Shown: positions 730-35,496 of the stretch, in pieces
Position numbering within the stretch: position 1 is the first letter of the stretch
Layout of the letters: each line of letters begins with the position of its first letter
Assembly: GCA_964187785.1 (NCBI GenBank)
Contig: OZ076409.1
Coordinates: 47,184,001 to 47,248,000, forward strand
DNA from: Amphiscolops sp. MND2022
Taxonomy: Eukaryota
Direction of reading: 5' to 3'
Length of the DNA stretch: 64,000 nucleotides
Translations under genes and position numbers: made by a program
Notes under the pieces: generated by a model
What the model saw: the letters and a program-made list of their open reading frames with translations, nothing else
What the model was told of the DNA's origin: nothing
Databases searched by the model: none

Positions 730-1500
730 CCACATACTTTTTCCATTCTCAAGCCCTTGAAAAAATGATTGGACTAATTCCAAAAAAATAAACTGAATAA
801 AATTAGTTAGACTTTCAGTTTATTTTTTAGGTTATTATTTTTTCGTTTCATTTTACGTTTTGGCTTGGGGGGGGGGCTTGGTGTAAGAATAATACTTTAT
901 GAATGCATTAAACTGCTAAAGCATACATATTTCCTCCATTCTCAAGCCTTTCTAAAATTGATTGGACTTATTCCAAAAAGAATAAACTGAATAAAATTAG
1001 TTAGACTTCCAGTTTATTGTGTTAGGTATTTTTTTTCGTTTCATTTTCTTTTTTGGCATGGGGGGGGGGTTCGTGTAAATATAATACTTCAAGAATGCAG
1101 TAAACTGCTAAAGCCTACATTTTTCCTCCATTCTCAAGCCTTTGTAAAATTGATTGGACATATTCCAAAAAGTAAATTAAATAAATTATTGAGAGTTTCA
1201 TGAGTTTAATTTTATTGTGTTAGGTAATTTCTTTTTCGTTTCATTTTATTTTTTTTTGGCCTCGCGGGGGGGGGGGGGTGGGGTGGTTGTTGTGTTGAAT
1301 AAATTACTTTATAACTGCATAAAAATTCGCCAATGCATATACAATTTTTCCATTCTAAAATTTTCTTGAAATTGGTTGAATTTATTCCAAAAAACTATGT
1401 GAAATATCAAGACTTCAAGTTAATCATGTTCACTAATTTCCATTTTTTTCGTTTTATCCATGTTGCGTGTGGGGGGGGGGATTCGTTGATAAAATAATGC
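730..1500. repeat. Degenerate ~190-220 bp tandem repeat with G-runs (about 4 units)
   Basis: ccattctcaagcc...attggac..attccaaaaa...ttttcgtttcatttt...poly-G recurs near 743, 936, 1128 and 1350. Confidence 0.85.
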
Positions 1501-2194
1501 GTGAAAATTACTTAAAAAACTTTTACTACAAAAGGTAGAACATTGTGTGAAAATTCTTCATTAATACTCGTGGATGGTTCACAGTGATATCTGATACGCG
1601 TCGTACGTTCAATTTATCTAGTGACGTCATTTTGAACTATTTGGAATGCTTTCCAACGGTATTCGCTTCGCGAGTTAATACATTGTTCCTTTGTCGAAAG
1701 AAGCACTGATGACACACTCGCTCACCGCGACAAGGTCGGACATAGAATTGACCTCGGAATTGACCAATCAGAGAGCAGCATCACTTTTCGCTCACTTGGT
1801 CGAACTTACACTGGAATTCGTTCAACCAATCAAAAACGCCGGATTCGTGACACTCTTTCGCCGCTGGTCGGCGCTATGAAAATGTATAAAATCTAACATT
1901 TTGTCACTTGGTAGGACAAAGTCTTAAAATAATCCTGAGGCCATTTGAAGCATTTTCCACTATTCAGAATAGCGTGTTCGACCAATTATGACCGACGAAG
2001 TGCGGGTTCGACCAAGTGCTAGGCAAAAAACGGGCCAATGTCCGACCAAGTGCGGATTCTCAAACGCACACACACACACACACATGTGTACGAAGTAGCA
2101 CTTGGTGGGTCCGTACACGAAACGGGCATAAGGTGGGACGTACACACTTCTCCCTTGGTGGGACATACACAAAATCTTTAACTTGGCTATTAAT

Positions 2195-2762
2195 AATACT
2201 TATTGACATGCATTGGTGGGACCTTAACACAAAATCTTTTTGGCGATTTTCAGCTATCAAGAATACTTATTGACATGCATTGGTGGGACCTTAACACAAA
2301 ATATTTTCAGCGATTTTCAGCTATCAAGAATACTTATTGACATGCATTGGTGGGACCTTAACACAAAATCTTTTCAGCGATTTTCAGCTATCAAGAATAC
2401 TTATTGACATGCATTGGTGGGACCTTAACACAAAATCTTTTCAGCGATTTTCAGCTATCAAGAATACTTATTGACATGCATTGGTGGGACCTTAACACAA
2501 AATCTTTTCAGCGATTTTCAGCTATCAAGAAAACTTATTGACATGCATTGGTGGGACTTAAACACAAAATCTTTTTGGCGATTTTCAGCTATCAAGAATA
2601 CTTTTTGACATGCATTGGTGGGACCTTAACACAAAATCTTTTCAGCGATTTTCAGCTATCAAGAATACTTATTGACATGCATTGGTGGGACCTTAACACA
2701 AAATCTTTTCAGCGATTTTCAGCTATCAAGAATACTTATTGACATGCATTGGTGGGACCTCA
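2195..2762 (+). repeat. 67-bp tandem array (~8.5 units), each unit carrying TTGGTGGGAC
   Basis: The unit tattgacatgcattggtgggaccttaacacaaaatcttttcagcgattttcagctatcaagaatact starts at 2201, 2268, 2335 and onward; units are near-identical with no unique spacers. Confidence 0.95.
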
Positions 2763-3265
2763 AAACATAATTCTGTTTTCCGAATGTTATTCTTTACGAA
2801 TGAAACTCTGTCATTGGAGAGAGCAAAGACACAACGAAATTGGCTGGAAATTTATTGCAGTCATTATATTGACTTTAATTATTAATTGTTCACGCATTTA
2901 ATATTTTTCAATCCCTGGTGACCAGTCTTTGGGCAATTTTCAAATGGACTCAAGGTACTGATAATCATTGGTTTTAGTCAAAGTGACAGATAAAATTTTC
3001 TCGGTAACCCCATATTTTTTGTACACCTTCTGAATAATTTTCATATACTTTACTCTTGACAGTACACAGTTAGCTAGTAACAAGTTGACTGGTAAATTAA
3101 AAATCCAAGTCATTGCAAATCTTTTATTCAGCCCAAACAACGTTGTTACAACTCAAGTCAAGTATCGTAAAACCTGGATTTGTTTGAAAAGGTAAGTTTC
3201 ATACTCGAGTGAAAGTTCATATGACTTTATCCTTCAATTATTGTTATCCTGTCACTGATAACTGA

Positions 3266-3682
3266 TCATTTTCTTGCGTCACTGATGGTCATGTTCCGTA
3301 TTTTATCTTTGATATCCTGCCACTTTGAAGCATGGGGATATTTTTTCATTGCCTCCAAACAAACTGCTCGGCCAGGCAGTCGTCCTTGCTTCATCTCTTC
3401 TCGGAATTGTTTCCTCAGCCTTTTTTCTTGATCCAGCGGCCATGTTCGTCGTGTAGTACCACCAGGCTTAGGCTTTTTCTTACCACCAGTAGTTTTCTTT
3501 CGATTCCTTTTGATTGTTGTATTAAATTCATCCGTAATGTCACCCGTGTCACCATCGCCTGTTCCAAGTGAGAGACTGTTTTTGCTTCCCGAGGTTGAGG
3601 CATTGGACCTTCTCAGTGAATTTTCTGCGCCGTCACCGGATCTCGCATGATTGGTATCGTCTTGGACTTCGGTTTCGTTATC
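3266..3682 (-). CDS. Exon 5 (not in ORF track): low-complexity linker, basic stretch and Myb/SANT-like helical C-terminus
   Basis: Acceptor ttttcaag|GAT, then 138 open codons ending ...RRTWPLDQEKRLRKQFREEMKQGRLPGRAVCLEAMKKYPHASKWQDIKDKIRNMTISDARK*. The spaced Trp pattern is Myb/SANT-like. Confidence 0.75.
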   Translation of the reverse strand, partial: DNETEVQDDTNHARSGDGAENSLRRSNASTSGSKNSLSLGTGDGDTGDITDEFNTTIKRNRKKTTGGKKKPKPGGTTRRTWPLDQEKRLRKQFREEMKQGRLPGRAVCLEAMKKYPHASKWQDIKDKIRNMTISDARK

Positions 3683-6600
3683 CTTGAAAAAACAAATTCC
3701 AATTACTCAAATGAAGTCAACCTGTTTCTAACTAAACGACTTTGTTTTGGCTAAGTTACTATTTTATAATTTTAAATTCAAAAGTTTTATAGTTTAAAAG
3801 TTACAATACTCTTTGATGTTTTGAAAAGAGAGTTTTGAAAAGAAACGCGACGTGATAGAGAATAGGCCTGCATTGCCTAGATGCATGTGTATTATGCACA
3901 ATTAAGATGTGTATTGTTTCGTTGGGAGTATGATCCAAAAGAAACGCAATGTGAAGAAGAGGTTTGTATTGCTTCAGTAGAAACTTTATACGAAAATAAA
4001 CGAAGATCCGAATTATCCGGTTACGAATTAAATGAAATTGATTGTACTGTTATCTGAAGTAATCAGAAGAATCAATGGTTGGCTTTATAAAAAAATAGGT
4101 AAGAAAAAATCTATTCTTTCCAGTTGATGACAGTTCCTGAATAGGTTTGAATTTCTTTTCCGCGTGCTATGTTAAAACTGGACACGAAGTTACTGATCTC
4201 TTGAAAATCAATGTTTTCCAGATTTGCCAGATGGAGCAAATAATATTGAGTTCATTGACTTTGGACGACCAAGTTCTGAAGCAATCGACTTTAGATCACA
4301 TTGCGTTTCTTTTTAACCAATTCCCAATCAAATATCTTCATCTTCACAAACTAGCGTTGGATTGCATGTTATGATTATACTTATGATAATTATAACTGAA
4401 ATTGAATTCCAGCATGTAATGTTTCAGTGGGTTTTTGTTTTTTTCGATAGATTATTCCCGGACCCGTAGGGGATTTTCTTTATTGCAATAGTACAAATAT
4501 CAAAACCTATTTTTTTTATTTAATCCGGACTGATATTTTCAAAAACTACAAAACTAACCGAGTCGTCCAACTCGCCATCCTCCAGTGTTGGTTGAATTGT
4601 GTCAAGGTCTTTCGAATAGGCTTCCTCGAGTTTACCGCTGTCGACCATATACAACAATTTTGTAACTTTTGCTAGATTTACGGCATCAGTGTGCATCCTG
4701 TAATACTTGTCGTGAACCCTTAAGTCATGACCCAGAAAATCAGCAACCCAAGTCCTCTGGTGCTGTGGTAAGTTCAAAAACTGTGCTGCTGTCGCCATAT
4801 ACTTTCGAAGCTTCGTTGACCTGAACAAAGGTTTGTTCTCCAGCTCAAAGTCTTTAGCGAACTTGTTCAGGGCCTCAGCGCTCCGGTAATGCAGTTTTCC
4901 ACCTTCTGTTTGGAAGAAGTACGTTTCATTTTTCAAGTTGTCATCATTTATCATGATATCAATAAGTTTGAGTGTGTCCGGTGGCACCAGCACAGGGACA
5001 ACTTTTCCTCCCTTACCAGGAAGTCGGAGGAGTGTGTAGACTTCTGCGAACTTTTCCTCTAGTTTTGTAAGCTTCACGAGCTCGTTATCCGCTGTCTTTG
5101 CTCGTTCACTGGCAAGACTCCGTTGTAGTATCATATCTCTTCTTTTGATTCCAGAAACTTCACGATCACGCTTCTTGTTGAAACTAACAAGATCAGCTAT
5201 CACAGTTAGTTTGAGTTCGGCATAGTTATACTTAGTCAGTTCGAGGAGTTCTCGCACTTTTTTTCCAATGCTTTGCCGGAATTTAATGATGTCCGTAGTG
5301 GGAATAACCAGATGTATGCTCTCATTTTGCTTCTTGACCAACCTAGAAAAACACAAGGTGATTAGATTTGGGAAAGAAAAGGCTGAAAACGTTTATCAGC
5401 TAGTTTTAGGGGGCCTAAATAAAACGTGTGGAGCAACTTTTTACATTGTGGCTTCTTTTACTTGAATTGTTGAGCAAACCAGACTTAGTGGGACATAAAC
5501 CCGCTCTTTTACTTGGCCTTGGTGGGACGCACACTAAGTGAGACATAAAAGGTGGGCCCGCTATAAGGACTAGAGCAAAACGACTGAAATTGGCTAAGTA
5601 ACTATTTTAGACAAAGTTCCACTACGTTTCTCACACTCCGAAACTACAATTTTTTTTCAAATTTTTGCCAAAATTCGATACTTTTTGTAAATATTTGCCT
5701 CAATAGTTTTTGAATGGTTCCAACTTACTCGTATTTAGCAGGTGCGGATATTTGAGCCCATTCAGTGTCAATAATTTTCTGAAACTGTTTAGCTTGTTGA
5801 GATATCTCCTTCTTCTCCCACACGAAAGCTTGATTTTGCAGAAATGCAGCAGCTGTTTTCAGAATCGATCCCATTTTCACTTGGTAGGATTTTGCAAAAT
5901 TTTTTGACACCGCTTCTTTCACTTTTGACCACATGTCTGGTCTGATTAGTTCAATCAAATATGAGCATTCCAGTTGGAGAACAAGTTTGGCCATTACTCG
6001 CATTCTGTCCCTGATCTGATTGTAGCCTTCGTCTGATTTTCGCTTGTTGAAATAATATTCCCCAACATACTTTATAAGGGGGTCATTTCGTATTAGTTCT
6101 GCAACTGGATCGTTTCTTAAATTGTTATAAAGGAATTCCTGGAATGGTGTGTTATGATTTGCTTTGATTTCAAGCATCAACGCAAAGATGGCAGCTTTGA
6201 TGTTTTTGTTTTTTCCTTCCTTATGGCTAGACTTGGTAACTGCCGGGCAGTCTAGTTTGTGCCGGTACATGGTTTTTCTCATGAAGAAGCCAAGACAATC
6301 AGGACAAGGAGCATAGTTATCAGCTGTTGGATTCTCCGTTTCCGTTGGGTCCCTGACTACGATCAGTTTGTCAGTGAATCTGTTCGTATCTATGCATTTT
6401 TTGAAAACCGCGATGTTATATTTGTACTGGCCTTCATATGTGATCAAGCGGTATGTTTGCTCTTTCTCTTTATGAAGTTTCCTCAAATCGCGTTCAGTTG
6501 TCGCGATTTCCTTACTTCCTTCTAATTCTTCTATTTCTAGATTTATTCGCCTAAGGTTACTGACGCGGAGCTCTCTTTGATGGAATGATTGCAAATGGCG

Positions 6601-9600
6601 ATGTAATTTGGCGACCATTGTCGCATCTTTGATATCTTCGAAAGGACAGTAAGGACAACATTTCTTCTTTTTGTATTTACCTTCAGAGACAACAATCTGG
6701 ATCTTCTTGAGATACTTTGAGTTGAATCTCCATTTTCCGGAACAATTAGCGTTGACATATTGTTGCATGTCGTCTTCAATGTTATCATAGCCGTCCATAG
6801 TGTTTGCAACATCATCTGGTCTTGTAGACGACGTTGACGCTAGTGCGGTCTGATAACTACTCTCACTGATCTGAGAAATGCCTTCTCCCAATACCACTGT
6901 CTGATTTGATGAAACTTTATTGGGTGTACTTGGCGCTCTTTCAGCTGTTGATGCAGTTTCTGTTTCTTCTTCTGAAGACAGTTCCTCGCTACCTTCATCC
7001 TCATCAACAATGTAACTTTCACCTGAAGATTCAGATGTTTCCGACGACGAATCGTCGCTGGAACTCTCGCTTGATTGTTCAGGTATGTTGCTGTGTTCTT
7101 CGGCTGAGTCAGAATCCAAATCTTCCTCAGGCTTCGGCGTTAAGTATTCGCGTCCTTTGTTGAGAATTCTCAAAGCCCTTGATGTTCCCTCAGAGAGCTC
7201 CAACTGCTTAAAAAGGGAGAATCTTATTCTTTCGGGAACAACACAGTTCCGAAAAAAATATTTCGCTCTAAAACCACAGTGGCTTCCTTTTGGACTAAAA
7301 TTGTATTGAGGTTATTTCCAGATGATGAAGCATTATAATCTACATTCGTTCACAATGCGTTTGTTTTTACATGCAAAATTCTTTTCACATGATTAAACTT
7401 AACAATTAAAAAAAAAACTTTTACCAGCATGATTTTAAAATCCTGTGGCACTTCAATGAATGAGGTGCATGAAAGCCATCAAATTGTTTTCACTTTGAGG
7501 TGCAAACGCAACCAAAAAAAGATTTTTCAAAAAGTCAGTAATTTCAAATCTTAAACGGGTAATTAATGAAATTGTGCTTACCTTCTGAGGTATTATACAT
7601 TCGTTTTTGGCTCCAAAAGGTGTTTTTGGTTTTCTTCCTTCTAGTTCAGTCATTTTGGCATACGATGCTTCAATGCTTCTAGTTACATTCTTCGGTTTCC
7701 GTGGTTGTTTAGAAGCTTTCGCTTCTGTGTCAGTAGTTTTGTTTTTCTCAACATTGCTAGATTGGTTTTGCGATGATTTTGTTGAGATCCTCGGTTCCGT
7801 GTCCCCGTCTTTGCGTAACGGGTTAGGAGCCTTCTCTTCTGTGTCAGTAGTTTTGTTTTTCTCATTTTTGCTAGATTTGTTTTGCGATGATTTTGTTGAG
7901 ATCCTCGGTTCCGTGTCCCCGTCTTTGCGTAACGGGTTAGGAGCCTTCTCTTCTGTGTCAGTAGTTTTGTTTTTCTCAACTTTGCTAGATTGGTTTTGCG
8001 ATGATTTTGTTGAGATCCTCGGTTCCGTGTCCCCGTCTTTGCGTAACGGGTTAGGAGCTTTCTCTTCTGTGTCAGTAGTTTTGTTTTTCTCAACTTTGCT
8101 AGATTGGTTTTGCGATGATTTTGTTGAGATCCTCGGTTCCGTGTCCCCGTCTTTGCGTAACGGGTTAGGAGCCTTCTCTTCTGTGTCAGTAGTTTTGTTT
8201 TTCTCAACTTTGCTAGATTGGTTTTGCGATGATTTTGTTGAGATCCTCGGTTCCGTGTCCCCGTCTTTGCGTAACGGGTTAGGAGCCTTCTCTTCTGTGT
8301 CAGTAGTTTTGTTTTTCTCAACTTTGCTAGATTGGTTTTGCGATGATTTTGTTGAGATCCTCGGTTCCGTGTCCCCGTCTTTGCGTAACGGGTTAGGAGC
8401 TTTCTCTTCTGTGTCAGTAGTTTTGTTTTTCTCAACTTTGCTAGATTGGTTTTGCGATGATTTTGTTGAGATCCTCGGTTCCGTGTCCCCGTCTTTGCGT
8501 AACGGGTTAGGAGCTTTCTCTTCTGTGTCAGTAGTTTTGTTTTTCTCAACTTTGCTAGACTGGTTTTGCGATGATTTTGTTGAGATCCTCGGTTCCGTGG
8601 CCCCCCGTCTCTCTTCTGTGTCAGTAGTTTTGTTTTTCTCAACTTTGCTAGACTGGTTTTGCGATGATTTTGTTGAGATCCTCGGTTCCGTGGCCCCCCG
8701 TCTCTCTTCTGTGTCAGTAGTTTTGTTTTTCTCAACTTTGCTAGATTGGTTTTGCGATGATTTTGTTGAGATCCTCAGTTCCGTGTCCCCTTCTTTGCGT
8801 AACGGGTTAAGAGTCTTCTCTTCTGTGTCAGTAGTTTTGCTTTTCTCAACTTTGCTAGATTGGTTTTGCGATGACTTTGTTGAGATCCTCTGTTCCGTGT
8901 CCCCCGCATTGTTGTGTAATGTGTTAGGAGGTTTTTCTACTGTGTCCGCTGCGTTTTGTATCTCAATGTTGTTAGATTCGTTGCATGATTGCAATGGCAC
9001 AGGCTGAAGTGGAATTGTGAGGTTCTTCGCACTAAGATTGGGATACAAATTGGAAACCTCTTTCACTGGAACTTCAGATTCTTTTCCTTTTCTTTGCGTT
9101 GTTGATGAAATTCTTTTTTCGGAATCACCGGGTTTTTCTTTTTCAGGTCCAGATTGTTTGAAGAGAGTTTCCAGTTTCTTCTTCCTTGTCACTGTTATGA
9201 AGGGCTCGTCCACATTACGAGATATTTTGTTTTTGGAATCAGCGGCTTCTATATTATCTATATTACTTTTGGTTCCCGGAGCTTGAGGATTTCGTCTCCA
9301 TTCTGCATGAGGAAAACCATAATCATAGCGCAACTCCTCACCTGTGAATATGAACGGATAAACAAGAATGATCAATTGAGAATTGTTTCTTTTAATTGTC
9401 TCACAAAAGTGATTCGGTGGAAACTTCGGCAATAGGCAGTGTTTTTCAATTTTCAGATGTCCCGTTAAGGCCGTGCAAAAATAAGGCCGTTTACGATACC
9501 AGAATTGGTGGGACATAGATTCCGTTTTTTACTCAGCCTTGGTGGTACCTCATACGAAACATAGTGCAAAATGCCTGGAATTTGCTACGAAAGCGTTAAG

Positions 9601-10171
9601 GCAGTGTAAAATAATAGCCTGGTACTTCCAAGTGTGTATTACTGCAAAACCGTTCAATGTATCGTTACGCTTTGATCAACACTTGCTGGGACACTGATAC
9701 CTTTTTCACTGGAACTTGGTGGGACTCACACTCAGTGCCTTAAATGGCCTTCTGTCTTGTAAAAAAAACAAACTAACCAGACTGAATCGGGCGAGTTGCC
9801 AGGAAGATGCAATGGTTTCTACCTTGGTCATCAGTGACCTTCTTCATCCGACAGTTAGCAGCCACTGCTCTGTCCTTGTCGTTGATGAATCGAGCCATTC
9901 CTGAATTCTTTTCGTCAGAAGTGTCAATGAATACCGCTTGTTTCCCTTCTTGCAGTTCCATCACATAGTCGAAGTTGGACGTTTTTGTTGTACTTCTCGG
10001 TCCCCAGTAAGTGAGCAAAAATTCTTTGTCGTCAAAACTTCTGTTAGCGAAAAGCCCTCGCCCCGTGGCCCCGTTTGCAAACTGTACAGTTTTCACTTGG
10101 AAGCCTTCTGGGTCTGAGTAAAGAAAAGAGCTCCAGGGCTCTGCTTTCCGGGCAGCACTTCTTGTTGACAT
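3266..10171 (-). CDS. Spliced SET domain - tandem repeat - Zn-binding - tyrosine recombinase - Myb/SANT-like fusion protein (~1609 aa), Crypton-like YR element protein
   Basis: Exons 10171-9778, 9341-7582, 7203-5729, 5342-4559, 3682-3266 total 4830 nt = 1610 codons. Donors are GTTAGT, GTAAGC, GTAAGT, GTTAGT, each with an AG acceptor, and phases 1,0,2,0 all keep the frame. SET motifs GRGLFA, ARFIND and GEELRYDYG are joined across intron 1. YR motifs are FNKKR, GKGGK, TKLRK and LGHDLRVHDKYY. Confidence 0.85.
4559..5342 (-). CDS. Exon 4: tyrosine recombinase catalytic domain
   Basis: R (FNKKRDREV), K (LPGKGGKVVPVL), K-x-R (RSTKLRKYMAT), H (FLGHD) and nucleophile Y (HDKYY) occur in the order expected for the phage-integrase/YR fold. 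Confidence 0.9.
5729..7203 (-). CDS. Exon 3: acidic region, two Zn-binding motifs and helical pre-recombinase region
   Basis: 492-codon open frame with CPYC...LHRHLQSFH and CPDCLGFFMRKTMYRHKLDC. The tandem NAGNAG acceptor (exon start 7206 or 7203) is in frame either way; the donor is GA|GTAAGT. Confidence 0.85.
7715..8905 (-). repeat. Coding tandem repeat, 11 units of 114 bp (two of 93 bp), encoding TEPRISTKSSQNQSSKVEKNKTTDTEEKAPNPLRKDGD
   Basis: The gagatcctc anchor recurs at 7784, 7898, 8012, 8126, 8240, 8354, 8468, 8582, 8675, 8768 and 8882; all spacings are multiples of 3. Confidence 0.95.
9778..10171 (-). CDS. Exon 1: SET-domain lysine methyltransferase (N-terminal part)
   Basis: GRGLFANRSF, LLTYWG, FIDTS, GMARFIND, ANC and IFLATRPIQSG; the domain is completed by GEELRYDYG at the start of exon 2 (9341). 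Confidence 0.88.
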
Positions 10172-10536
10172 TCAAGTCCTAGAAAGTTACGTTTAAAGAA
10201 GTCCTGACAGACAAGAAATCGTTTCTAACCCCATCTCACTAGTGAACTCGATGTACATTTGTAAGCTTACAAAACATTGAATTAAAAAACCACTCCGAAG
10301 AAATGCTTTAATTACGAAAGACCATTAGTACAACTGATACTTCCAGATTCTGTAAGGTAGTAACAATTGATTTAAGCAAAAACAAAGTTACACGTAGCCT
10401 ACAAGTCGGAAGAATCATTGAGCAAATTCAGAGTTGAGGCTGAATTTTTGCCTCAATTGTTCTCTTGAATTCTCAAAATCCACAACATTTGTACATTCAT
10501 CATAAGAAACTTTCGATTTTTTCTATACCTTGTATA

Positions 10537-10935
10537 CAGAGGTATGACAGCGATAGCGACAATTCAGCATGAATTAGCGATAGCGATAGTTAGCGACAAA
10601 TTAAAGCGTTAGCGAACATGTTTTCAACTAGAAATTCAAAATTAACTAATGCAAAAAATTATTGCGAATAACTTGACACATCATTTTGGCTTTTTCCTTT
10701 CGAACAGTTATTCGATGAGCCCGGCTTTGTAGGCGAAGTACAATTTGCCCAAAACTTCAAAATTTATTAATTTTAAAGTACATTCTGAAATTTTCATATG
10801 ATCTTTCTGAAAATCAGGTTTTTAAAATAGTGATAGCGTTAGCGAACCACCCATTTTGTTGTAGCGATAGCGATGAAATCAAGCCATTAGCGATGTTAGC
10901 GATTTGCGATAAAATTGTTAGCGATCACACCTCTG
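10537..10935. mobile_element. hAT-type MITE between the JmjC and SET-YR genes
   Basis: TIR cagaggtatga / tcacacctctg; 8-bp flanks cttgtata / ctggtata (7/8); internal tagcga subterminal repeats. Confidence 0.75.
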
Positions 10936-11125
10936 CTGGTATAGTATTTACTACGTAAGTAAAAAAAGTAAGCAAAAGTGCTCAGTAAGTAAAAAACACA
11001 TGACACTAAATAAAGAAAGCAAACTGTTTGCATGTTCATCAGTCAATAAAGATCCGAAAATCAAGTTTTGAAACTGAAAATGAAGACTTCCTCAAGCTGC
11101 ACTTTCTGGACTCTGTTGTTTCTCC

Positions 11126-11582
11126 TCAACGTTGTAGCCACTCCTCAATTACATCCCAATGCAAGTCGCTGACAGTTGCTGCATAGCGATACAAGAACTC
11201 TGCCCAGGGATTTTCCAGCGGAAATTCTTTACCAGTTGGTCGCTCATCAGCTTTTATGATCTGCAGCATCTCACGCATGGCGGCTTTCGTGATAGGACTC
11301 ACGCGGTTTTTATTAGCCCATTCCATGTAGAGCTGCATCACTATCAAACCTGGGAAGTTTGGGAACAAGAAACGTCTTGCCAAACCTGCGTCTAGCTCCT
11401 TCTTGAAGGCTAGGGCACTCTGGTGGAGGTGGGTTTCCATAATGAAGTTACACGCATAAGCAATGCTATCAACAGGGGTGTGAACAAAGTGAATCCACTG
11501 GCTTGGTAAGAAGATAGCGTCTCCTTCTTCTACCACAATATGATAGCATGTGACATCTCGATGGAAACCGAAGAAAGTGGAG
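11126..11582 (-). CDS. JmjC gene exon 4: JmjC C-terminal half with the third Fe ligand His
   Basis: Acceptor gttttcag|C; WIHFVHTP and ACNF motifs match the KDM2/KDM7 consensus WIHAVxTP...GGNF. Confidence 0.88.
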
Positions 11583-14500
11583 CTGAAAACAACATTAATC
11601 AAAGTTGAGAGAACTAACTTCTACTTTAAACATCGGAAATTTTCTAAGAAGTTTCAGCCCCTTGAAGGTATCTTGTAACTCGTGAAAAGCAAACCCTTTT
11701 TTGGAAATATCTTCAGTCATAACCTTCAGCTTTTAACAGTTGTTGACAACAATCACATAACCAATTACAACTTAACAATAAGGAAAAAGATCACAATTAT
11801 TAATCTAAACTGAAGTAAAAACTGAGTTTTCCTTTTTACAAACCTTTTCCATTCACTCTCTCGCCATTCGTCAAAACGCTGTTGGGCTTTCTGGGTTGGC
11901 TCCACGATGAAAAATTCTTTCCTTCCCTTCAACAAAAAGTAAAAAACAGAAGTTCCGGTGAAATCCTGATGCCAATCCGTCTGTGCTTCCTGTTCAGTCA
12001 TCAAGAGGTAATTGCTGATGCCAGCAGTGAAGTCAAACTCTTCTCGGATTGAGGGATCCATTCTTGAGGTGTAAGTATGACCCAGAGAATATTCTTTTAT
12101 CAAGTTTGGAATCGAAAATGTGTGTTTCATTGTCCTCTGATGCGGACCAATGTCAAGGTCGATGATGTTCATTGGATGAAGATCTCGCTCGCGGAATGGG
12201 TCTTCATGATGCCCCAAAAAACTTGCCAAGGTCATATTGTTCTCCACTTCCTGGAGTGCTGAAAAACACACATTTACTTTCCTGCTGCAAGGGATTCCCT
12301 CAGTTATTTTACGGAAGGTACCGTGTATGGCACTAGGAACAACAAGACCAGCAAGTTTGCCCCTAGCTTGTCTCAAAACTACAGGACATGGTGTACTTCT
12401 CGTCATTCGGTTCTTGAAATCCTGGCGGTTGTTGACAGTGAAACTTTGGGTGACTGGTACTTTCCCTCGAATTAAATCCAAAAACTTTTTTGACCCAACT
12501 TTGGAACGATTGTGTGAACCCCATTTGAAGGAATCTAAATACGGCAGTTCAATTTCCGGTATCTTTTGTTTTTCTTTCAGAGCAGTCTCTTCTTCAAGAG
12601 CAATCTCTCCTCCGGGAGCAGTCTCTTCTTCAGGAGCAGTCTCTTCTTCAGGAGCAGTCTCTTCTTCAGGAGCAGTCTCTTCTTCAGGAGCAGTCTCTTC
12701 TTCAGGAGCAGTCTCTTCTTCAGTAGCAGTCTCTTCTTCACGAGCAGTCTCTTCACGAGCAGTCACTTCACGAGCAGTCTCTCTTTCTCTAGGAGGGGTT
12801 ATTAATTCGGGGGGAAACACTTCACCAGAAGCAATTACTTCTTCAAAAGTAACTGTTTCACCGAAAAGTTCTCCTAGGGGAGGAACAGACTGTTGCCTTT
12901 CAGGGCTAACTCTGGGTGTCCTGTCGAGAGAAGTTGTTGCAGCATCGGGTTCGGGAGAAGGTACATCATCTCCGGTTACATCAACAGGAACATCTACTGG
13001 AGTTGTAATACACGATGTGGTTCTAGCTTGCAGACCTCTACATTGTTTATTTGTTTGTCGATGACGGAGCAAATCGAAATGTCTCGTTAGTATCTTCCCA
13101 CAAGAATTGCATTCGAATGAGCCCTTCTGACGTTCTGAAACAAGTTTTAGTTGATACGTTATTAAAGACTTTCATCTATATATTTATCTGAATTTGTTTT
13201 CCCGTAGAATTTTTTAGGTTTGTGATTTGTTTATATCACTTTAAATGTGTTTGATTCTTTCATTGGTATGAGTCTTCAATGTAGTCAATTCATCAATATC
13301 TTGATAATTCTGGCATGACTGGGTGTTAGGCCGTGCTTCAATAGTTACAATACCGTGGGGACCAAAACGCACTTGGTGGGACATGGACCTGCTTTTTTAC
13401 AACATGTCACTCAATCAACCATCAGTACAAAAAACCTATAAACGGTAATCAGTGAATACCAATAAGACTTTTTGTTCTGGTGATCATTATAAATACATAT
13501 CATTTCCAGGAAACTTCTTCACTTGTTTATGCAAAGCCGGCTTAGTGGGACATAGACCCCTTTTTTAAAAGGCCTTGGTGGGACATAAAAGTTGAGAGCC
13601 GCTATGAAACATTTTTACGCCATTATAAACAGCCCCGTTATAAACAGCTGACCGTGTTTGTTCACTAAACTGTTTGAGTCGAAAAATAATTATATCTGTT
13701 TAAAAATATTTATTTAAAAATACTTATTTTTACAACCTTGCATAGACCCCACTTTTCACTAGGCCTTGGAGGGACATAAAATGTATATTCATGTACTTCT
13801 TTATTGGATTTATTATATGATTATCAATTGTAAGTGTTTTCCACGTATTGAATGATTTTGTACTCATGTTTTTTATTTCAAACACTTTATCAGGATCTTT
13901 TCTGTTTACCAAAGCCAATCCCCCTCACAGTAAGAGCGAAAATTGTAATTTTCCCCAGAATCAACGATGAGTTTTATTCAGGTGCAGTTAGAGTTACAAT
14001 AGTGTAAGAAAAGAACTGAACCCTTATTTGTGAGAAATAATTTGGACTGCATGTAAACATAGCAAGGATAAATTGAATGTCTAAGATAATGGGCATAATC
14101 GCCTTAGTTAGCAGATTCTCGTGATTATAATTTTATCGGTTAAAAATCTAAAACCGAAAGCATAATTCCCAATCTTTGCGAAAAATAGCTGTGTCCCACG
14201 TATTAAGATAGTAAATAAAATGTAATAGAAGAGAACCCCTTTCAAAAACTATAAAATACCAATTACCTTAATGTAAAAAAAATGAATGGCTTCAGTAAAT
14301 GAAGAAGTGTCTGCCAAATAAATAAAAGTTCCAAATTAGGTGCCAAATGTTACAAAATTGTCCAAAATGATGTCCCCTATGCCAATTCAGTAGTAAATAC
14401 AATCAATCAAAAATGAAATTAAGAAGTTTCTTCATTATTTGCAAACTTACATTTCAAGTGCGCAACAAAATTTCAGAATGTTTGTTTATTTGATTTTCAA

Positions 14501-17500
14501 ATAACTTGGATGATAGCAGAAATCAGAGCTAGTTTTGTTTTGGTCCAATTCTTTTTTTACAAATAAGGGTTCAGTTTATTTCTTACACTATTGTATAAAT
14601 ATTTTTTTATTACAAATATTATTATTAATACTACTATTTCAATGATAATTTCACTTGACCTCTTAACTGGGGGTATTAAATTGGTGGGGGAACCAGGGGT
14701 TGGTAATTTTGTATTGCAATGCAATACAAGCCTACCAATTATTAATTTTTGTGCTAACAGAAAAGATCCCTTCATCATTTTCAAATGTCAATTATCACGT
14801 TCAAGCGCCACTTCATTCGTAACAGTGTGGTATGAGGCGCGGCGCGGAATGTATACATGTACTGTGTATATATATTCCAATTACTTTACTGTGAATAGGG
14901 GACTATGGCTCAGAGCAACAGCTTCCGCTTGTCAGATCACCAAAGTTAAACACTTGGCAGGCGGAGGCGTTTGATATGTGTAACATATCTGTAGATATCT
15001 CTGGATAGGTCTCAGATATCAACTATATCAACTGCTGGCTCTGAGCAAATGTCCCCATTTTGAAAAATGTTGAAAATCATTTTTGAAATGAAACACTGTA
15101 CTATTTCAATAAGCGCCAAGAATGACCAAGAATGGTTCATTCTGTAACCGAGAAAGTGTGCAAAAAGTGCTCAACGGCGAGAAAAAAATGAAAACTCGGC
15201 AATTTATTGTACAATAAATGTATTAATTAATGTTGTTTGAAAGTTAGAGTATTTAATGAAAATGCCAGTCAAAGTAATGCATTTATTGAATGTAGGATAT
15301 CCATTAATAATGTATTCTTTTAATGCAAATCCCTGATCGCAACTCCATTGCTCAAAATAGCGAATTTAAAACTCAAATATCTTTAAAATTGTCAGCTACA
15401 AAAGTTTCTTAGACTTTTATCTAATTTACAAAAATGTTTGTTTGAAAATTCTGCGAGAAAAATTACAAAAGTTAGAAATACGAAAATTTGACAAAATTTC
15501 AGGATCTTTACTGGTAATCCCCCCACCACGTTAAGCGGCCAAGAGAAATTATCATTGAATAAATATTAACAACCAATGGAATTGCAGTATTTTATAGCTC
15601 TAACTGCAACTGAAACTCATCACTGATAGTGGTGGGGAATTAAACTTCCGAGCTTACTTTGGGGGAGGGGGGAATAACAGAAAAGATACAATTTTCATCA
15701 AATTTGCACTTTTTCTTGATTTTCACAAAGTTAAAAATATTTTTGGAAAATTTTCTATCCATCGTTTGCCCCCAAGTCTCCTGCGGATGCTGATATGGTT
15801 TCATTGAAAATTTTTTCTATTTAAAATAAAAATCGGTACTTTCCTAATGGACCGGACAATTGAAAAACCATTCCTAATAGACCGGACGCACTATATAGAG
15901 ACCGTACAATCAGTTCATTGACTTAAAGACTCCGGTTTCAGGAAAGTACCTAAAAATCATCAATTCTCTAAATACAATTCAAACTTTCATTGAAATAGCA
16001 ACGCGGTGTGATTTTGTGTAATTTCTTGTGAAATAGCAACGCAGTGTGATTTTGAGCAGTTTCTTATGAAATAGCAACGCGGTGTGATTTTGAGTAATTT
16101 CATCTGAAATAGCAACGCGGTGTGATTTTCGAGTAACTTCGGTGAAATAGCAACGCAATGTGATTTTCGAGTAACTTCGGTGAAATAGCAACGCGATGTG
16201 ATTTTCGACTACCTTCGGTGAAATAGCAACGCGATGTGATTTTCGAGTAACTTATTGAAATAGCAACGCGATGTGATTTTCGAGTAACTTTGTTGACAAG
16301 CAATAAGATTAAAAGCAAATTTTAGTTGTTCATTTTCAAGGCGCTATGGCCAAATAGTTAGTGCGCTAGCTTTCGAACCATAAGGTCTTGGGTGCGATTC
16401 CCGGACAGGTAAAATATTTCCTATTTCGGAAATAAGATCTAAATATTTTTCTTGATTTCAGTAAAATAACTTCGAGAAAAGGCCTTGCTATTTGTGTTAC
16501 TGTTGTTTGCAATTAATTGTTGTCAAATATTATTTAATTATTTCGTTCTTTTTGCCGCTTTACATTTAATAATTTGATTGCTTTGTCATCATTGTGGGTT
16601 CGAAACTTGGCCTCGAATAATCAAGTATTTACTGCTTCTATTTTTGACTCTCAAAACGATCTATAGAGCAGCTTTTCCTATAGCTAATTTCAAACTTCGG
16701 TGAAATAGCAACGCGATGTGATTTTCGAGTAACTTCGGTGAAATAGCAACGCGATGTGATTTTCGAGTAACTTCATTGAAATAGCAACGCGATGTGGTTT
16801 TCCCCAGTGAATTTCATTGAAATAGTAATGCGGCGTGATTTTCAGTCAATTAAAGTGAAATAGCAACGCGATGTGATTTCGAGTTTTTTCTAATGGGGGC
16901 CTATTCATACAGCAGAAAATAAAGCAGCATAAAGAAGCATCCTGATGGGAATGAATATAAAAACTATTGTTGCGTTTGCAATACGATTGAAATAATCTAG
17001 AAGGGGAGACATTTTTGTGTTGTCTTTTGTTGTTTAAGGGTTCAAAGACGCCACCAAAGACGCCACTGTACTGTATTATATTGATTTATAACATCGATAT
17101 TTTAACAAGATAACAAGATATATTGAAGAAAAAGGAACTATTTTTAGCTCAACGTAGATCATCTAGACACCATCATGAGTCTTATATGTACTGCATTTTA
17201 TATAAACCTCAGGAAAGTGCTAGTCGAAATATGTCAAATCAAGTTTAATTTGGATATTGTTTGCTAATGGCTCCCGCGAACTTATTTCCCTTTTCCCACT
17301 TAAAAGTTTTGGATTTTCAGCGTAGTCGTTTTTTCACTGTTTTGTCAGAGGAATTATCCCAGCTTACTGATAAAGGGCCACAGTATCCCATTTAGTTTTG
17401 GTAATGGTCACGAGTTTGCTTAAATTCATTTTGGATAGAGCCATTTTACGTGTTGACCGGGATCTTAGAAGTGAAAGTCAAGTTGTTCATGCAGCGTGAC

Positions 17501-18724
17501 AACCTTCATTTTCCAATCAATGATCACCTTTTCTTGTTCACACAAGCGTGGAACGAACCTGACTTCATAGTTTTTGTTTGAAACATTCGAAAGCTTAGAT
17601 TCAATAATTGATTAATTTCCGTGAAGGTGGCAATTTTCTGCAAACACTCTGGGGACAGATAAATTTTCCTGTGAGTGGGGTGGGGGTGGGTATTAGCAAA
17701 CAAGATCCGTTAATTTATATCAATAATCAGAAATTCTTCAATTGTAACACGACGAATTTCGTCTCGGTGCAAAACTGGGGCTATACTGTAGTGTTCATAT
17801 CGTTTTCATATAGTACCAGTGCGGCGCCGAGCAACATCATCGTCCAAGTTAATAAACCACTTGACTTGAAATATTTCACTTGAAAGGAAAGTATTCGATG
17901 CCTATTCTGATTGAGTGAGACAGTACCAAGTTCATTCAGTTTTATACTGTTATGTTTTATTTTCTTTTTCAAATATTACATTATTTTCTCACTCAAAATG
18001 CTCCTGATTTTAATTTACCCAACGTTTACGAAACCAGAGTTGGTGGGACATAGACCCCACTTTTTACTAGGCCTTGGTGGGACGGAAATAAGGTAAAGTC
18101 ACTAGTTAAAAAAATAAACTAGTAAAAATTACATTGTCAAGAATTCACAAGAGAAGAACTCACTGGGTTCTGGTGAATACAAGTCGGATGCCTCAATTCC
18201 TCGCTCTCTGATTTCTTGCTGACGTCTCAAACAAGTGTTTTTTGACAGGTGTTGCTTGAGTTTTCCAGTGCTGGCGCAAATCAGACCGCATTCAGGACAA
18301 GTACAGCGATGAATACTCAAAGTTTTCCGTTGTTGATGAGCTAAAACAGAATGAAGTTAATATCTCTAGATCTTCAAATAACATAAGATCAAAGAGCATA
18401 AAATGGAATTAGTTCAAATTTTAAATGGCAAAGCATGAGTTACATAGAAAACACTACTTTGAGCCTCACCTATGATAGCATGAAAAAGGAAAACAATAGT
18501 CAACAAATATTCGTTTTCTTTTTGTTTGTTTCATTCGGGGTTTAAACTAAAACTTTTCCCCAAAACTTGGCTTCAAAAAAATTTCGAAATTTCTCATTTT
18601 GAAAATATTTTTCAAATCCAACATAATATCTGAACTCACCAAGGCATGTAGATTGATGACGCGTGTAGAACCATTGCTTGTTGGAATCAAACTCTTTGAA
18701 GCAGTGGATACAAGTGAAGGTCAT
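11126..18724 (-). CDS. Spliced 3x C2HC zinc finger + JmjC (KDM2/KDM7-like) histone demethylase-like protein (~669 aa)
   Basis: Exons 18724-18640, 18340-18164, 13134-11844, 11582-11126 total 2010 nt. Donors GTGAGT, GTGAGT, GTTTGT with phases 1,1,2 keep the frame. Fingers: CIHC..RHQSTC, CPEC..QHLSKNTC, CNSC..RHRQTNKQC. JmjC: TDWHQDFTGTSVFYFLLKGRKEFF...GDAIFLPSQWIHFVHTPVDSIAYACNF. Confidence 0.82.
11844..13134 (-). CDS. JmjC gene exon 3: third Zn finger, acidic EETAP repeat, JmjC N-terminal half with HxD
   Basis: Acceptor tttcag|AA; open frame through TDWHQD and the 2-oxoglutarate-binding Lys (KGRK); donor AG|GTTTGT. Confidence 0.88.
12580..12785 (-). repeat. Coding 18-bp/15-bp repeat (EEETAP)n
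   Basis: gagcagtctcttcttcag is repeated within JmjC exon 3. Confidence 0.9.
14835..15060 (+). repeat. Dispersed repeat with a 5S-rRNA-like core inside an imperfect inverted repeat (other copies, reversed, at ~43003-43143, 50105-50230, 56117-56278)
   Basis: The core cttgtcagatcaccaaagttaaaca / ctcgttagatcaccgaagttaaaca resembles the 5S internal box A region. It is bracketed by ggggactatggctcagagc ... gctctgagcaaatgtcccc. Confidence 0.65.
15985..16290. repeat. ~31-32 bp minisatellite (gaaatagcaacgcgatgtgattttcgagtaacttc); also at 16695-16885, 48175-48395, 57825-58000 and 63705-63852 (reverse)
   Basis: Directly visible tandem units with nearly constant content. Confidence 0.92.
16340..16410 (+). 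pseudogene. tRNA-derived fragment / SINE-head-like
   Basis: ggcgctatggccaaatagttag (A-box-like), ctttcgaa loop and gggtgcgattccc (B-box-like); the acceptor stem does not close. Confidence 0.45.

Positions 18725-22862: not shown

Positions 22863-22863
<1 letters not shown>

Positions 22864-22917
<54 letters not shown>
22864..22917. repeat. (TAC)18 microsatellite
   Basis: Direct reading. Confidence 0.97.
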
Positions 22918-22919
<2 letters not shown>

Positions 22920-23379
22920 GATCGCAATGACAAAACAAAGCAAAATCCGTTGGCAGCATGACATTTCAAAGCGTCCTCATTGGCCGCAGTGACAACATAA
23001 AAAGCCTTTACTACCCGGTAGTAACGTTTAAGTTGTCATTGTCTTGTTACTACCGCACTTGATATTGAAGACATTTTAAAGAATTTCTACATAAACATGT
23101 GCATTTCACGCCAGATGACAAAAGGGTTCCCAGATATATTCTCGTTCAACCTGTATTAACTCTAAATGGACCATTGGTACGATTTCGTACCTCTTAGTTT
23201 CTGCCAACTTTCAAACGCACCAGCTGACCGTATGTTGAAGAAAACTCTTGAATTAGGCTTTCAGGCATTATTACCCATTTTACATAGCATTACAGGCCTT
23301 TTTACGTAATAATGACATGATGTCTCCGAAATCCGGAGCCAGTGTGAAAATAGTTTAGACACTGCGATTTAAGTCCTAA

Positions 23380-24272
23380 ATTTTGTTTGATCCGGAGTTT
23401 AAAAACATGTATTTCATATTGTTTTGATTGAGTTTCATGTCGAAAATAGTACCTAATTTTTCGAACTGTTTTAGCATATCCTCAAAATCGGTCCAGAATT
23501 GCTACTGACACCGTAGGGGGGACATAGTGAGTGTATCTGAGGCAAAAAAACTATAGTGGATTAGTTTTGTTTGATCCGGAATATAAAAACCTGTATTTCA
23601 CATTGTTTTGATTAAGTTTCATATCAAAAATATTACCTACATTTTCGATTTTTTTTCTTACATATGATCAAAACAGGTCCAGAATTGCTAATGTTACCCT
23701 TGGGGGACCTAGAGCGTGGATCTAAGGCATCAAAATTATAGTGGATTAGTTTTGTTTGATCCGGAATTTAAAAACATGTATTTCACAATGTTTTGACTGA
23801 GTTTCATGTCGAAATAAGTACGTATTTTTTCGATTTTCTTACATGTCCTCAAAATCGTTCTAGAATTGCTACTGACACCCTTGGGGGACATTAGGAGTGT
23901 ATCTAAGGCATCAAAACCACAGTGGATTAGTTTTGTTTGATCCGAAATTTAAAAACATGTATTTCACATTGTTTTGATTGAGTTTCATGTCGAAAATAGT
24001 ACCTAATTTTTCGAATTTTTTACAAATCCTCAAAATCGGTCCAGAATTAGTACTGACACCCTTGGGGGGACATAATGAGTGTATCTAAGGCATAAAAACT
24101 ATAGTGGAATAACTTTGTTTCATCCGGAATTTAAAAGCATGTATTTCACATAGTTTTGATTGAGTTTCATGTCGAAAATTTTACCTACATTTTCGATGTT
24201 TTGCATATGATCAAAACAGGTCCAGAATTGCTACTGATACCCTTGGGGGAAAATAGGAAGTGTATCTAAGCC
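23380..24272. repeat. ~183-bp satellite, about 5 units
   Basis: tgtttgatccgga..taaaaacatgtatttcac recurs near 23384, 23568, 23753, 23934 and 24117. Confidence 0.92.
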
Positions 24273-24349
24273 ACAAAAGGTTTTGATTTGAGAAATTACA
24301 AGTGTTTACAATTTGTAACATTGATTGCTCTCGTGTTTTTTTTTACTTT

Positions 24350-26000: not shown

Positions 26001-26211
26001 AAAAAATTGATAAAATGATATAGTATTTATGATATAATGGATCGAGTCATCCATTTCCACACCCCAAATTTTAATATAATAGTATACTATAGTATTTTAG
26101 ATATAGTATAATATTGAATAAACTTCAAACAAATATGTTTTAAATATAAAAATATTAAATCAGAAACTAAGAGAGTTAGACAATTTTTAATGGCATATTC
26201 GGACTCGTATA

Positions 26212-26383
26212 GAAGTGGGACCAGAGCGGTCTCAGATGCACAATCTCCACTTGGTTGAACCTTGGTGACCCTCGTGGCAGAACTGCATGGAATCACTACT
26301 GTATTCCATGCAGTTCTGCCTCGAGGGTAATCAGGTTGAGCCAAGTGGAGATTGTGCATCTGAGACCGCTCTGGTCCCACTTC
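26212..26383. other. 172-bp GC-rich near-perfect hairpin/palindrome
   Basis: The ~82-nt arms (gaagtgggaccagagcggtctcagatgcacaatctccacttgg...gcagaactgcatggaat) are reverse complements with a few mismatches; the loop is about 9 nt. Confidence 0.97.
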
Positions 26384-28114: not shown

Positions 28115-28642
28115 TGGCACCACGACAATTCGTACAAACGACATTCCGTACAATAGCCAAAAACCCGACATTTCGTACACGGACAATTGGTACAAAAATG
28201 AAACCGGGCATTTCGTACAAAATTATAGTGAATAGATTTGCAAAATAGATCTCAAACAACAGAATTACTAGCTTTCAGTGCTGTTACAGCCAATATGTAT
28301 GAAACTTGATTCATTTAAAGAGGTTAGCATAAATGTTGTATGGCTCGGTCGTTTCGCTCCCTTCGCCAAGTAGCAACATTGAGGCATGGCCAAATGGCGC
28401 GTCGCTTCGCTTCGCTCCTGCATTTAGGGCACTAGGGGTATGTGAACATAGCTGACTACGTTATAATATTAAGTTGTATAATATAAATTGCACGAAATGT
28501 GGGGTTTCATTTTTGTACGAAATGTCAGGTTTCGTTTTTGTACGAAATGTCTGGTTTCGCTTTTGTACGAAATGTCTGGTTTTGGTTTTTGTACGAGATG
28601 TCGTGTGTACGAAATGTCGTGTCTACGAATTGTCGTGCCCCC
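28115..28642. mobile_element. MITE-like insertion with long repetitive inverted ends, nested in the satellite
   Basis: cacgacaattcgtacaaacgacattccgtac ... gtacgaaatgtcgtgtctacgaattgtcgtg; gacatttcgtaca subrepeats occur in opposite orientation at the two ends. Confidence 0.7.
28340..28463 (+). repeat. Dispersed ~125-135 bp repeat with gcttcgct motifs and CACTAG (Helitron-end-like); copies at 43802-43938, 58570-58700, and reversed partials near 48045, 57025, 61340, 61660
   Basis: tatggctcggtcgcttcgctcccttcgccaagtagcaacattgaggcat...gcttcgctcctgcatttagggcactag is nearly identical across copies. Confidence 0.75.
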
Positions 28643-35119: not shown

Positions 35120-35161
35120 TTTTGTAAATTTTGTAGTTTATTTTATTAGTTAATTTACGGA

Positions 35162-35495: not shown

Positions 35496-35496
35496 T

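What the first reader, a model, noticed from the sequence alone, without database searches (positions are those of the whole stretch)
3266..18724. Tyrosine-recombinase element carrying its own chromatin writer (SET fused to the recombinase) and eraser (ZnF-JmjC demethylase)
Seen: two adjacent, co-oriented, fully spliceable genes, a SET-repeat-Zn-YR-Myb-like fusion and a 3xC2HC-JmjC protein, with catalytic residues retained and no frameshifts. Known: YRs mobilise Crypton/DIRS-type eukaryotic elements; SET domains methylate lysines; KDM2/KDM7-type JmjC enzymes remove H3K36, H3K9, H3K27 or H4K20 methyl marks; host KDM2/7 proteins carry CXXC/PHD modules rather than C2HC triplets. Inference: this is a self-contained mobile unit that rewrites its own chromatin to escape silencing or license excision/integration. 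It may be the engine of a much larger cargo-carrying element, a metazoan analogue of fungal Starships. SET-associated YRs are not new to me, but I do not recognise the pairing with a dedicated JmjC gene as described.
Basis: partly seen in the sequence, partly recalled or inferred. Interest (0 to 1): 0.92.

Follow-up and report, generated by a model that had tools for sequence, protein, structure and literature searches.

The report
Giant transposon carrying histone-modifying enzymes
The two genes are the coding core of a roughly 57-kb, recently active jumping element present in over a hundred near-identical copies, which carries, besides its cut-and-join enzyme, a likely histone methyl writer and a likely histone methyl eraser, and so may protect itself from silencing by the host.

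Summary
Observation confirmed and extended. Both genes splice at GT-AG sites into stop-free proteins (SET-YR-fusion, 1610 aa; ZnF-JmjC, 669 aa) with catalytic residues intact. They are the core of a giant DNA transposon: 114 of 146 listed recombinase hits have a JmjC hit just upstream (chance ~0.1); the 30 best copies are 98.5-100% identical; 14 copies read at both ends measure 48.6-76.0 kb (median 57.4). Ends are ~24-bp imperfect inverted repeats joined to CA-rich targets, without a fixed target duplication, as reported for CryptonV. A ~33-kb sister family keeps the same JmjC + SET-YR cassette at 47-75% identity, and SET and JmjC show purifying selection, so JmjC is no chance passenger or host ortholog. 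A 7-mer occurs 67 times in 57.8 kb of element, never in 41.7 kb outside. SET-YR fusions are common in animals; a transposon-borne JmjC demethylase and this size were not found in ten literature searches (Repbase not seen). Not shown: expression, enzyme activity, a clean two-flank empty site, self-targeting of chromatin. The long arm is mostly non-coding, unlike Starship gene cargo.

The parts
1100..2064 (.). Right end of a sister element family ('X') stacked head-to-tail on the same CA target; not part of this element
   Evidence: 40 of 40 scored loci match up to window 2064-2066; 68% to this element's right end
2067..2084 (.). (CA)9 run: target/crossover spacer at the left junction
2085..2110 (+). 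Left terminus, imperfect inverted repeat of the right terminus (TGTGTACGAA-7 nt-TTGGTGGG)
   Evidence: same boundary in 19 of 20 fetched copies and 7 of 7 further ones
2186..2771 (.). Subterminal 67-bp tandem array (8.7 units), one GTGGGAC motif per unit
3266..3682 (-). Gene A exon 5: acidic linker and C-terminal Trp-spaced (Myb-like, unconfirmed) domain
   Evidence: no Pfam hit
4559..5342 (-). Gene A exon 4: tyrosine-recombinase catalytic domain (R1269, K1321, R1390, H1416, Y1425)
5729..7206 (-). Gene A exon 3: acidic region, Cys/His clusters and N-terminal part of the recombinase
7582..9341 (-). Gene A exon 2: end of SET domain, then 38-aa tandem repeats (114-bp units)
9778..10171 (-). Gene A exon 1: SET domain (family is SETD8/KMT5A-like)
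11126..11582 (-). Gene B exon 4: second half of JmjC (distal His) and helical C-terminus
11844..13134 (-). Gene B exon 3: third C2HC finger, acidic 6-aa repeats, first half of JmjC (HxD)
18164..18340 (-). Gene B exon 2 (predicted): second C2HC finger
18640..18724 (-). Gene B exon 1 (predicted): first C2HC finger
18028..18049 (+). Internal copy of the right terminal repeat (reverse orientation); another at 62050-62071
22863..22919 (.). Internal (CTA)n array, a hot spot for nested insertions
22920..32576 (.). 9657-bp nested insertion private to this copy, with its own imperfect inverted ends, inside the CTA array
   Evidence: 15 of 20 copies lack it; ends
32942..64000 (.). Long, mostly non-coding arm of the element, continuing past the window end
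   Evidence: 99.3-99.4% colinear in 3 of 3 copies over 33097-44132; 40 of 40 scored loci at 99-100% for 60450-62450

Best explanation
A recently active, ~57-kb Crypton-type (CryptonV-like) DNA transposon of a probably invertebrate animal genome. Shown: a discrete multicopy unit with fixed ends, CA-rich junctions, an intact recombinase gene, and a JmjC gene kept beside it under selection in two diverged families. Inferred: the SET-YR protein binds the inverted arms, recombines them across a CA spacer (by the Crypton model, via a circle) and inserts at CAC/CACAC sites, often microsatellites or the end of another family member. Inferred, less securely: the two chromatin enzymes serve the element. 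The KDM7/PHF8-like JmjC removes repressive methyl marks (H3K9me2/H3K27me2; H4K20me1 is also possible) from copies so that they stay transcribed and accessible, and the SETD8-like domain, tethered by the recombinase, monomethylates nucleosomes (H4K20 by family) at ends or targets. The GTGGGAC motif spread through the non-coding DNA is the likely address, read by the recombinase or by the C2HC fingers.
For: Pairing 114 of 146 YR hits, 58 of the best 62, 117 of 150 JmjC hits, on all 13 large contigs, chance ~0.1. 98.5-100% nucleotide identity in 30 best loci. Shared left end 19/20 and 7/7, right end 14/14, lengths 48,557-75,977. Element-free versions of three junction flanks share only CAC/CACAC or a CA run with the filled site. 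YR fold and residues. Sister family with same gene order, strand and splice positions: YR 69%, SET 75%, JmjC 47-56% identity, YR dS saturated, dN 0.20. dN/dS JmjC 0.46 and 0.48 (Fisher p 5e-4, 8e-4), SET 0.12 (p 6e-6). Motif 67 in 57.8 kb of element (expected ~2.3), 0 in 41.7 kb outside, 0 in 6852 nt of exons, 2 in 22 kb of sister family.
Against: No locus was found where both flanks of one copy rejoin; the C216 copy's two flanks map to different places, and 9 of 15 fetched candidate empty sites were uninformative. No test of activity or substrate; the window's SET is divergent (PDB hits only E >= 0.06) with a short insert region and N-D in place of the usual N-H motif (shared with relatives). 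JmjC dN/dS near 0.5 is only moderate constraint, from two related copies. The finger exons 1-2 had no match in the 10 kb read around the sister's JmjC. The motif is partly explained by copies of the terminal repeat, so it may be only a recombinase site. 32 of 146 YR hits had no listed JmjC partner (lists were capped).
Confidence: 0.6

Rival explanations
1. Same transposon, but SET and JmjC form a methylation switch on a non-histone target (the recombinase itself or a host factor) or act genome-wide without targeting; the motif is only a recombinase arm site or debris of captured ends.
For: The motif lies inside the terminal repeat and two internal sites are copies of the right end; fingers are sub-threshold and unmatched in the sister copy; SET and JmjC families suggest opposite activities on one lysine, which fits a switch; SETD8 and PHF8 have non-histone substrates (recalled).
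Against: Nearest solved relatives are all histone enzymes; the motif is spread along the whole element, not only near the ends.
Confidence: 0.28
2. JmjC is a passively captured host KDM2/KDM7 fragment with no role for the element.
For: The element clearly accumulates foreign DNA (nested insertions in 6 of 21 copies); dN/dS is only ~0.5.
Against: Kept in the same position in a sister family at 47-56% identity with catalytic residues; selection significant; groups with short stand-alone JmjC proteins apart from host-type rows and 5 of 5 scanned clade members lack the JHD hit that 4 of 4 scanned host-type rows have.
Confidence: 0.06
3. The unit is an endogenous virus or virus-like element using a YR as integrase, as with KDM4-like genes in Amoebidium giant-virus insertions.
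For: Size; giant-virus insertions carry JmjC genes (PMC11244446 passages); a few short unexplained ORFs.
Against: Intron-rich genes; no ORF of capsid, polymerase or packaging size in the 54 kb of element inside the window; no relative of the JmjC clade in viral contigs (one pattern only).
Confidence: 0.04
4. Segmental duplication or assembly artefact.
For: 58 of 146 YR hits are on small contigs that may be haplotigs; flank pairs can be chimeric.
Against: 71 gene pairs on the 13 large contigs, base-precise shared ends with unrelated flanks, inverted termini, graded divergence from 100% to 71%.
Confidence: 0.02

Closest known systems
CryptonV (Kapitonov and Jurka 2012, Repbase Reports; seen only as cited in PMC8869645)
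   Same: Animal YR-encoding DNA transposon; some families insert specifically in microsatellites (passage). Related YR proteins are widespread in fish, echinoderms, molluscs, a nemertean and a hemichordate, many with SET fused.
   Different: No reference CryptonV sequence was available to compare. Size (~57 kb), a second gene for a JmjC enzyme and ~24-bp inverted termini are not in the passages seen; Cryptons in general are described as lacking TIRs (PMC3212892, PMC13465315 passages).
Starships (fungal DUF3435 YR giants)
   Same: Giant, YR-mobilised, carries extra genes, microhomology at junctions (PMC13465315 passages).
   Different: No DUF3435 hit; content nearly fixed across copies; arm mostly non-coding; high copy number; recombinase reads towards the near end.
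VANDAL/VANC anti-silencing system of Arabidopsis
   Same: TE-encoded factor plus family-specific motifs in non-coding DNA and tandem repeats (PMC5735166 abstract and section titles); here 67 motif copies incl. a 67-bp array.
   Different: VANDAL is a MuDR element acting on DNA methylation through VANC; here the candidate effectors are histone enzymes and binding is untested.
Transposon-borne chromatin enzymes: SET in HarbingerS/MuDR of Phytophthora, TET/JBP in fungal DNA transposons
   Same: TE carries an enzyme for epigenetic marks (PMC12730594 passages).
   Different: DDE or other transposases; no JmjC mentioned (0 occurrences in that text); no writer-eraser pair.
KDM4-like JmjC genes in Amoebidium giant endogenous viruses
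   Same: A selfish element carrying a stripped-down histone demethylase (PMC11244446 passages).
   Different: Virus, KDM4 subfamily, no fixed link to a recombinase; here KDM7/PHF8-like.
Host KDM7A/PHF8/KDM2A and SETD8/KMT5A
   Same: Best solved relatives: KDM7A E 8e-12, PHF8 E 7e-24 for relative P0008, KMT5A E 4e-26 for the loach family member.
   Different: No PHD/CXXC; multicopy; separate fast-evolving clade.

Membership tests
Crypton superfamily | Tyrosine recombinase as the mobilising enzyme, catalytic residues kept | tested here: met
Crypton superfamily | No reverse transcriptase or DDE transposase (DNA element) | tested here: met
   no such long ORF in the element part of the window; the last ~6 kb read from another copy
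Crypton superfamily | Short 4-6 bp direct repeats / microhomology at the ends | tested here: met
   CAC/CACAC shared with element-free flanks; CA-rich on both sides in 14 of 14; not a strict duplication
Crypton superfamily | No terminal inverted repeats (as described in PMC3212892, PMC13465315) | tested here: not met
   ~24-bp imperfect inverted termini in 14 of 14 copies; they fit the inverted arms of a YR site described in the same paper
Crypton superfamily | Circular excision intermediate | not testable with these tools
   needs reads or PCR across the joined ends
CryptonV | YR belongs to the CryptonV clade | not testable with these tools
   no Repbase sequences at hand; assignment recalled from family features
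CryptonV | Microsatellite target preference | tested here: met
   CA-rich junctions in 26 of 26 left and 14 of 14 right ends read; one target had only CAC
Starship | DUF3435 captain recombinase | tested here: not met
   no PF11917 hit on the YR exons
Starship | Variable protein-coding cargo | tested here: not met
   arm 99.3-99.4% colinear in 3 of 3 copies; no ORF above a Pfam cut-off among 10 candidates outside the two genes, plus none by Atlas for one; small spliced genes could be missed
Host KDM2/KDM7 ortholog | Single copy, syntenic | tested here: not met
   151 matches among 150 scored of 1292 candidates
Host KDM2/KDM7 ortholog | PHD or CXXC module and JHD domain | tested here: not met
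   none on the window exons or P0008
JmjC Fe(II)/2-oxoglutarate demethylase (KDM2/7 type) | HxD...H triad and cofactor Thr/Tyr/Lys | tested here: met
JmjC Fe(II)/2-oxoglutarate demethylase (KDM2/7 type) | Histone demethylase activity | not testable with these tools
   needs assay
SETD8/KMT5A-like methyltransferase | Closest to KMT5A, both active-site Tyr kept | tested here: inconclusive
   met for the loach relative; window SET keeps Y55 and the ELxYDYG motif but matches KMT2A and KMT5A equally weakly
VANDAL/VANC-type anti-silencing | Element-specific motifs in non-coding DNA | tested here: met
VANDAL/VANC-type anti-silencing | Element-encoded protein binds the motif and removes silencing marks | not testable with these tools
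   needs EMSA/ChIP

The most novel reading that the evidence does not exclude
A group of 30-60 kb animal tyrosine-recombinase transposons encodes a complete, sequence-addressed chromatin kit: a recombinase-tethered methyl writer, a zinc-finger-guided histone demethylase, and a family-specific DNA motif painted along the element, so that each family de-silences only its own copies. This would be the first animal transposon with its own histone demethylase and an enzymatic counterpart of plant VANC.
Probability: 0.3. Interest if true: 0.92.

Novelty: new variant of a known kind. Interest (0 to 1): 0.78.

Why it matters
How animal transposons resist host silencing is an open question; known anti-silencing factors come mostly from plants, fungi and viruses. 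Here a demethylase and a methyltransferase ride on an element that is visibly young and abundant (at least 71 gene pairs on the large contigs), with two diverged families and distinct motifs as natural controls, so the idea is directly testable. The element also shows that an animal YR can move ~57 kb into CA repeats, which bears on large-cargo integration tools and suggests such giants are fragmented and overlooked in repeat libraries.

Tried and rejected
Single-sequence fold of JmjC relative P0008 failed (pLDDT 34) and was not searched. YR by Pfam/PDB sequence search: nothing. First guess that the element ends at the CTA array was wrong: it is a nested insertion. Strict target-site duplication: rejected, the 4-8 bp on either side differ in most of 14 pairs. 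Empty-site tests on C741 (4 paralogs), C476 (3) and C56 (2) were uninformative; the C2 continuation of the C216 left flank occurs nowhere else. The window copy's right end was not found in 20 kb past the window. JmjC neighbourhoods in other organisms: none found in metagenome or viral contigs, so co-occurrence outside this genome is open; whether P0008 comes from another species is unknown, and P0041/43/45 look like the sister family here (79-92%). The host's own KDM2/KDM7 genes were not located. No tRNA or Rfam match. Earlier findings: none for this genome or sequence; eight listed under looser words concern other systems. No complex prediction was sent.
Full report
Setting. The window is G000:C1:47184001-47248000 of a 1.07-Gb assembly. 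Spliceosomal introns and the all-animal named relatives of the recombinase suggest an animal, probably an invertebrate; this is inference.

1. The genes. Splicing at GT-AG sites gives gene A, 1610 aa, and gene B, 669 aa, both on the minus strand, stop-free, 954 bp apart. A starts with a SET domain (PF00856, E 7.4e-8), then 38-aa repeats, Cys/His clusters, a recombinase domain and a Trp-spaced tail. It aligns along its length with loach and sea-urchin SET fusions (24-26% over ~750 aa, E 1e-44 and 8e-56), so the fusion itself is an ordinary family feature: PF00856 is listed on several of the 120 shown relatives of P0004, PF00589 on 2. The recombinase has no Pfam or PDB sequence hit, but an AlphaFold model from 127 rows (pLDDT 84.6) matches XerH, XerA and Cre first (probability 1.00; E no better than 1.1e-3) and a phage integrase at E 5.5e-5; R1269, K1321, R1390, H1416 and Y1425 are conserved. 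B has three C2HC fingers (sub-threshold hits), acidic repeats and a JmjC domain closest to KDM7A/PHF8 with the metal triad and cofactor residues. The family's SET is closest to KMT5A/SETD8 (loach member E 4e-26 against 8e-14 for EZH2), but the window's own SET matches solved SETs only at E >= 0.06. Substrates named in this report are recalled from those families.

2. Copy number and pairing. The YR exon gave 146 matches (146 scored of 662 candidates; 24 with the top score), the JmjC exon 151 (150 scored of 1292, 150 listed). 114 of 146 YR hits have a listed JmjC hit 4-14 kb upstream on the same strand (107 at 6-8 kb; chance ~0.1), 58 of the best 62; 117 of 150 JmjC hits have a YR; 71 pairs lie on the 13 large contigs. 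Both lists are capped, so the 32 unpaired hits are not all true losses; the 58 hits on small contigs may include haplotigs. The 30 best loci (one is the window) are 98.5-100% identical over up to 3.5 kb: a recent burst.

3. Extent and ends. The left boundary is window 2085 in 19 of 20 fetched copies (one fetch missed the anchor) and 7 of 7 more. After the CTA array at 22863, 15 of 20 copies continue with what the window has at 32942; the 9657 bp between are a private nested insertion, and the other 5 copies hold different insertions there. 7 of the 15 carry a further ~1.7 kb at 33096 (my arithmetic). Three copies stay 99.3-99.4% colinear over 33097-44132; 40 of 40 scored loci match 60450-62450 at 99-100%, and 35 of them lie 37-64 kb from a listed YR. 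The right end was found in the C8 copy and in 13 more; lengths are 48,557-75,977 bp, median 57.4 kb. The window copy follows the C8 copy for over 3 kb past the window and then departs; its right end was not found. The termini are imperfect inverted repeats (GTGTACGAA-7 nt-TTGGTGGG), each abutting CA-rich sequence, without a strict duplication. This fits a YR site of two inverted arms around a 6-8 bp spacer (PMC3212892 passage) and the microsatellite targeting reported for CryptonV (PMC8869645 passage).

4. Empty sites. Of 15 candidate element-free stretches fetched, 6 were informative: the C216 left flank runs into a CA run and unrelated DNA on C2; the C216 right flank occurs element-free at two loci sharing CACAC; 3 of 3 paralogs of the C1651 left flank share only CAC. 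Against a clean result: the two C216 flanks do not rejoin at one locus, probably because assembly across 57-kb repeats mis-pairs flanks; 9 stretches were uninformative.

5. A sister family. Window 1100-2064 is the sharp right end of a related element (40 of 40 loci), stacked on the same CA sites: 3 of 14 right flanks begin with its left end. In a ~33-kb copy on C4, of which 20 kb were read, lie a YR (69% and 61% identity in exons 4 and 3), a SET exon (75%) and a JmjC gene (47% and 56%) in the same order, strand and splice positions, catalytic triad intact; the copy is frameshifted and no match to finger exons 1-2 was seen. YR synonymous sites are saturated with dN 0.20. The pairing is therefore old.

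6. Selection and origin of JmjC. Against two copies of an ~80% subfamily, JmjC dN/dS is 0.46 and 0.48 (p 5e-4, 8e-4; 0.27 in exon 4, 0.6 in exon 3); SET is 0.12 against one (p 6e-6), the other being frameshifted. In a 46-row tree (45 of 151 hits long enough to span the domain, plus the window) B groups with P0008 (99/97) inside 15 short stand-alone JmjC proteins, apart from 31 longer rows (100/100); branches are long and the join may be an artefact. 5 of 5 scanned clade members lack and 4 of 4 scanned others have the JHD domain. The clade members looked up carry no informative names.

7. A family motif. GTGGGAC occurs 67 times in 57.8 kb of element DNA (expected ~2.3), 0 in 41.7 kb outside, 0 in 6852 nt of exons, 2 in the nested insert and 2 in 22 kb of the sister, which instead has TTGGTCG 10 times, unevenly. 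It recalls VANC targets (PMC5735166 abstract), but it is also part of the terminal repeat, so recombinase binding or captured ends explain it equally.

8. Mechanism. Shown: unit, ends, target bias, copy burst, conserved cassette. Inferred (about 0.95): YR-driven mobility. Inferred (about 0.6): both enzymes are active and help the element through histone marks. Speculative (about 0.3): finger-guided, family-specific targeting.

9. Literature. Ten full-text searches (listings and abstract starts seen) found no report of a JmjC gene on a Crypton or other DNA transposon, nor of a giant animal Crypton. Passages were read from PMC11244446, PMC8869645, PMC5753468, PMC13465315, PMC3212892, PMC6431247 and PMC12730594, and the abstract and outline of PMC5735166; no supplements. 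Repbase Reports and one key review were not available, and Repbase entries may already note SET, size or JmjC in CryptonV, which would lower novelty.

Verdict. Real, and larger than reported: a new variant of a known kind, a giant CryptonV-like transposon with a conserved writer-eraser pair. Interest 0.78.

Noticed in passing
window 22920-32576: 9.66-kb apparently non-coding element with its own imperfect inverted ends inserted in the (CTA)n array; five other copies hold different insertions at the same array, one ending in a reading frame that resembles the recombinase's Trp-spaced tail (L069), suggesting further microsatellite-targeting YR families.
   Followed up: partly
window 32942 onward: The sequence right after the CTA array resembles the ends of the nested CTA-targeting elements, so the long arm may itself be an old captured element.
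   Followed up: no
window 51845-51979 (+): 44-aa ORF with CxxC...CxxC; weak RING-like Pfam hits below cut-off (E 4.6e-4).
   Followed up: partly
window 22159-22593 (+), 37306-37572 (+), 37855-38214 (+): Exon-like open frames of higher GC in the element's arm; no Pfam or Atlas assignment.
   Followed up: partly
L075 454-834 and 1155-1535; window 33960-34688: Two long near-perfect internal inverted duplications (about 0.9 kb and 0.3 kb arms); the first holds a duplicated 127-aa open frame with CxxC.
   Followed up: no
window 18028-18049 and 62050-62071: Internal copies of the right terminal repeat in reverse orientation; could act as alternative ends.
   Followed up: no
L102/L116 (C5:34.10 Mb): A subfamily with JmjC at ~81% and SET at 95% protein identity but a YR exon at 98%: modules appear to be exchanged between subfamilies.
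   Followed up: partly
small contigs C56, C1411, C291, C226, C912: Several small contigs consist mostly of one element copy and end near its termini, as expected when a long young repeat breaks an assembly.
   Followed up: no
P0063, P0070, P0085, P0088, P0091, P0095, P0101, P0129, P0150, P0174, P0179: An unnamed clade of short KDM2/7-related JmjC proteins from public assemblies; candidates for further mobile-element or virus-borne demethylases.
   Followed up: partly
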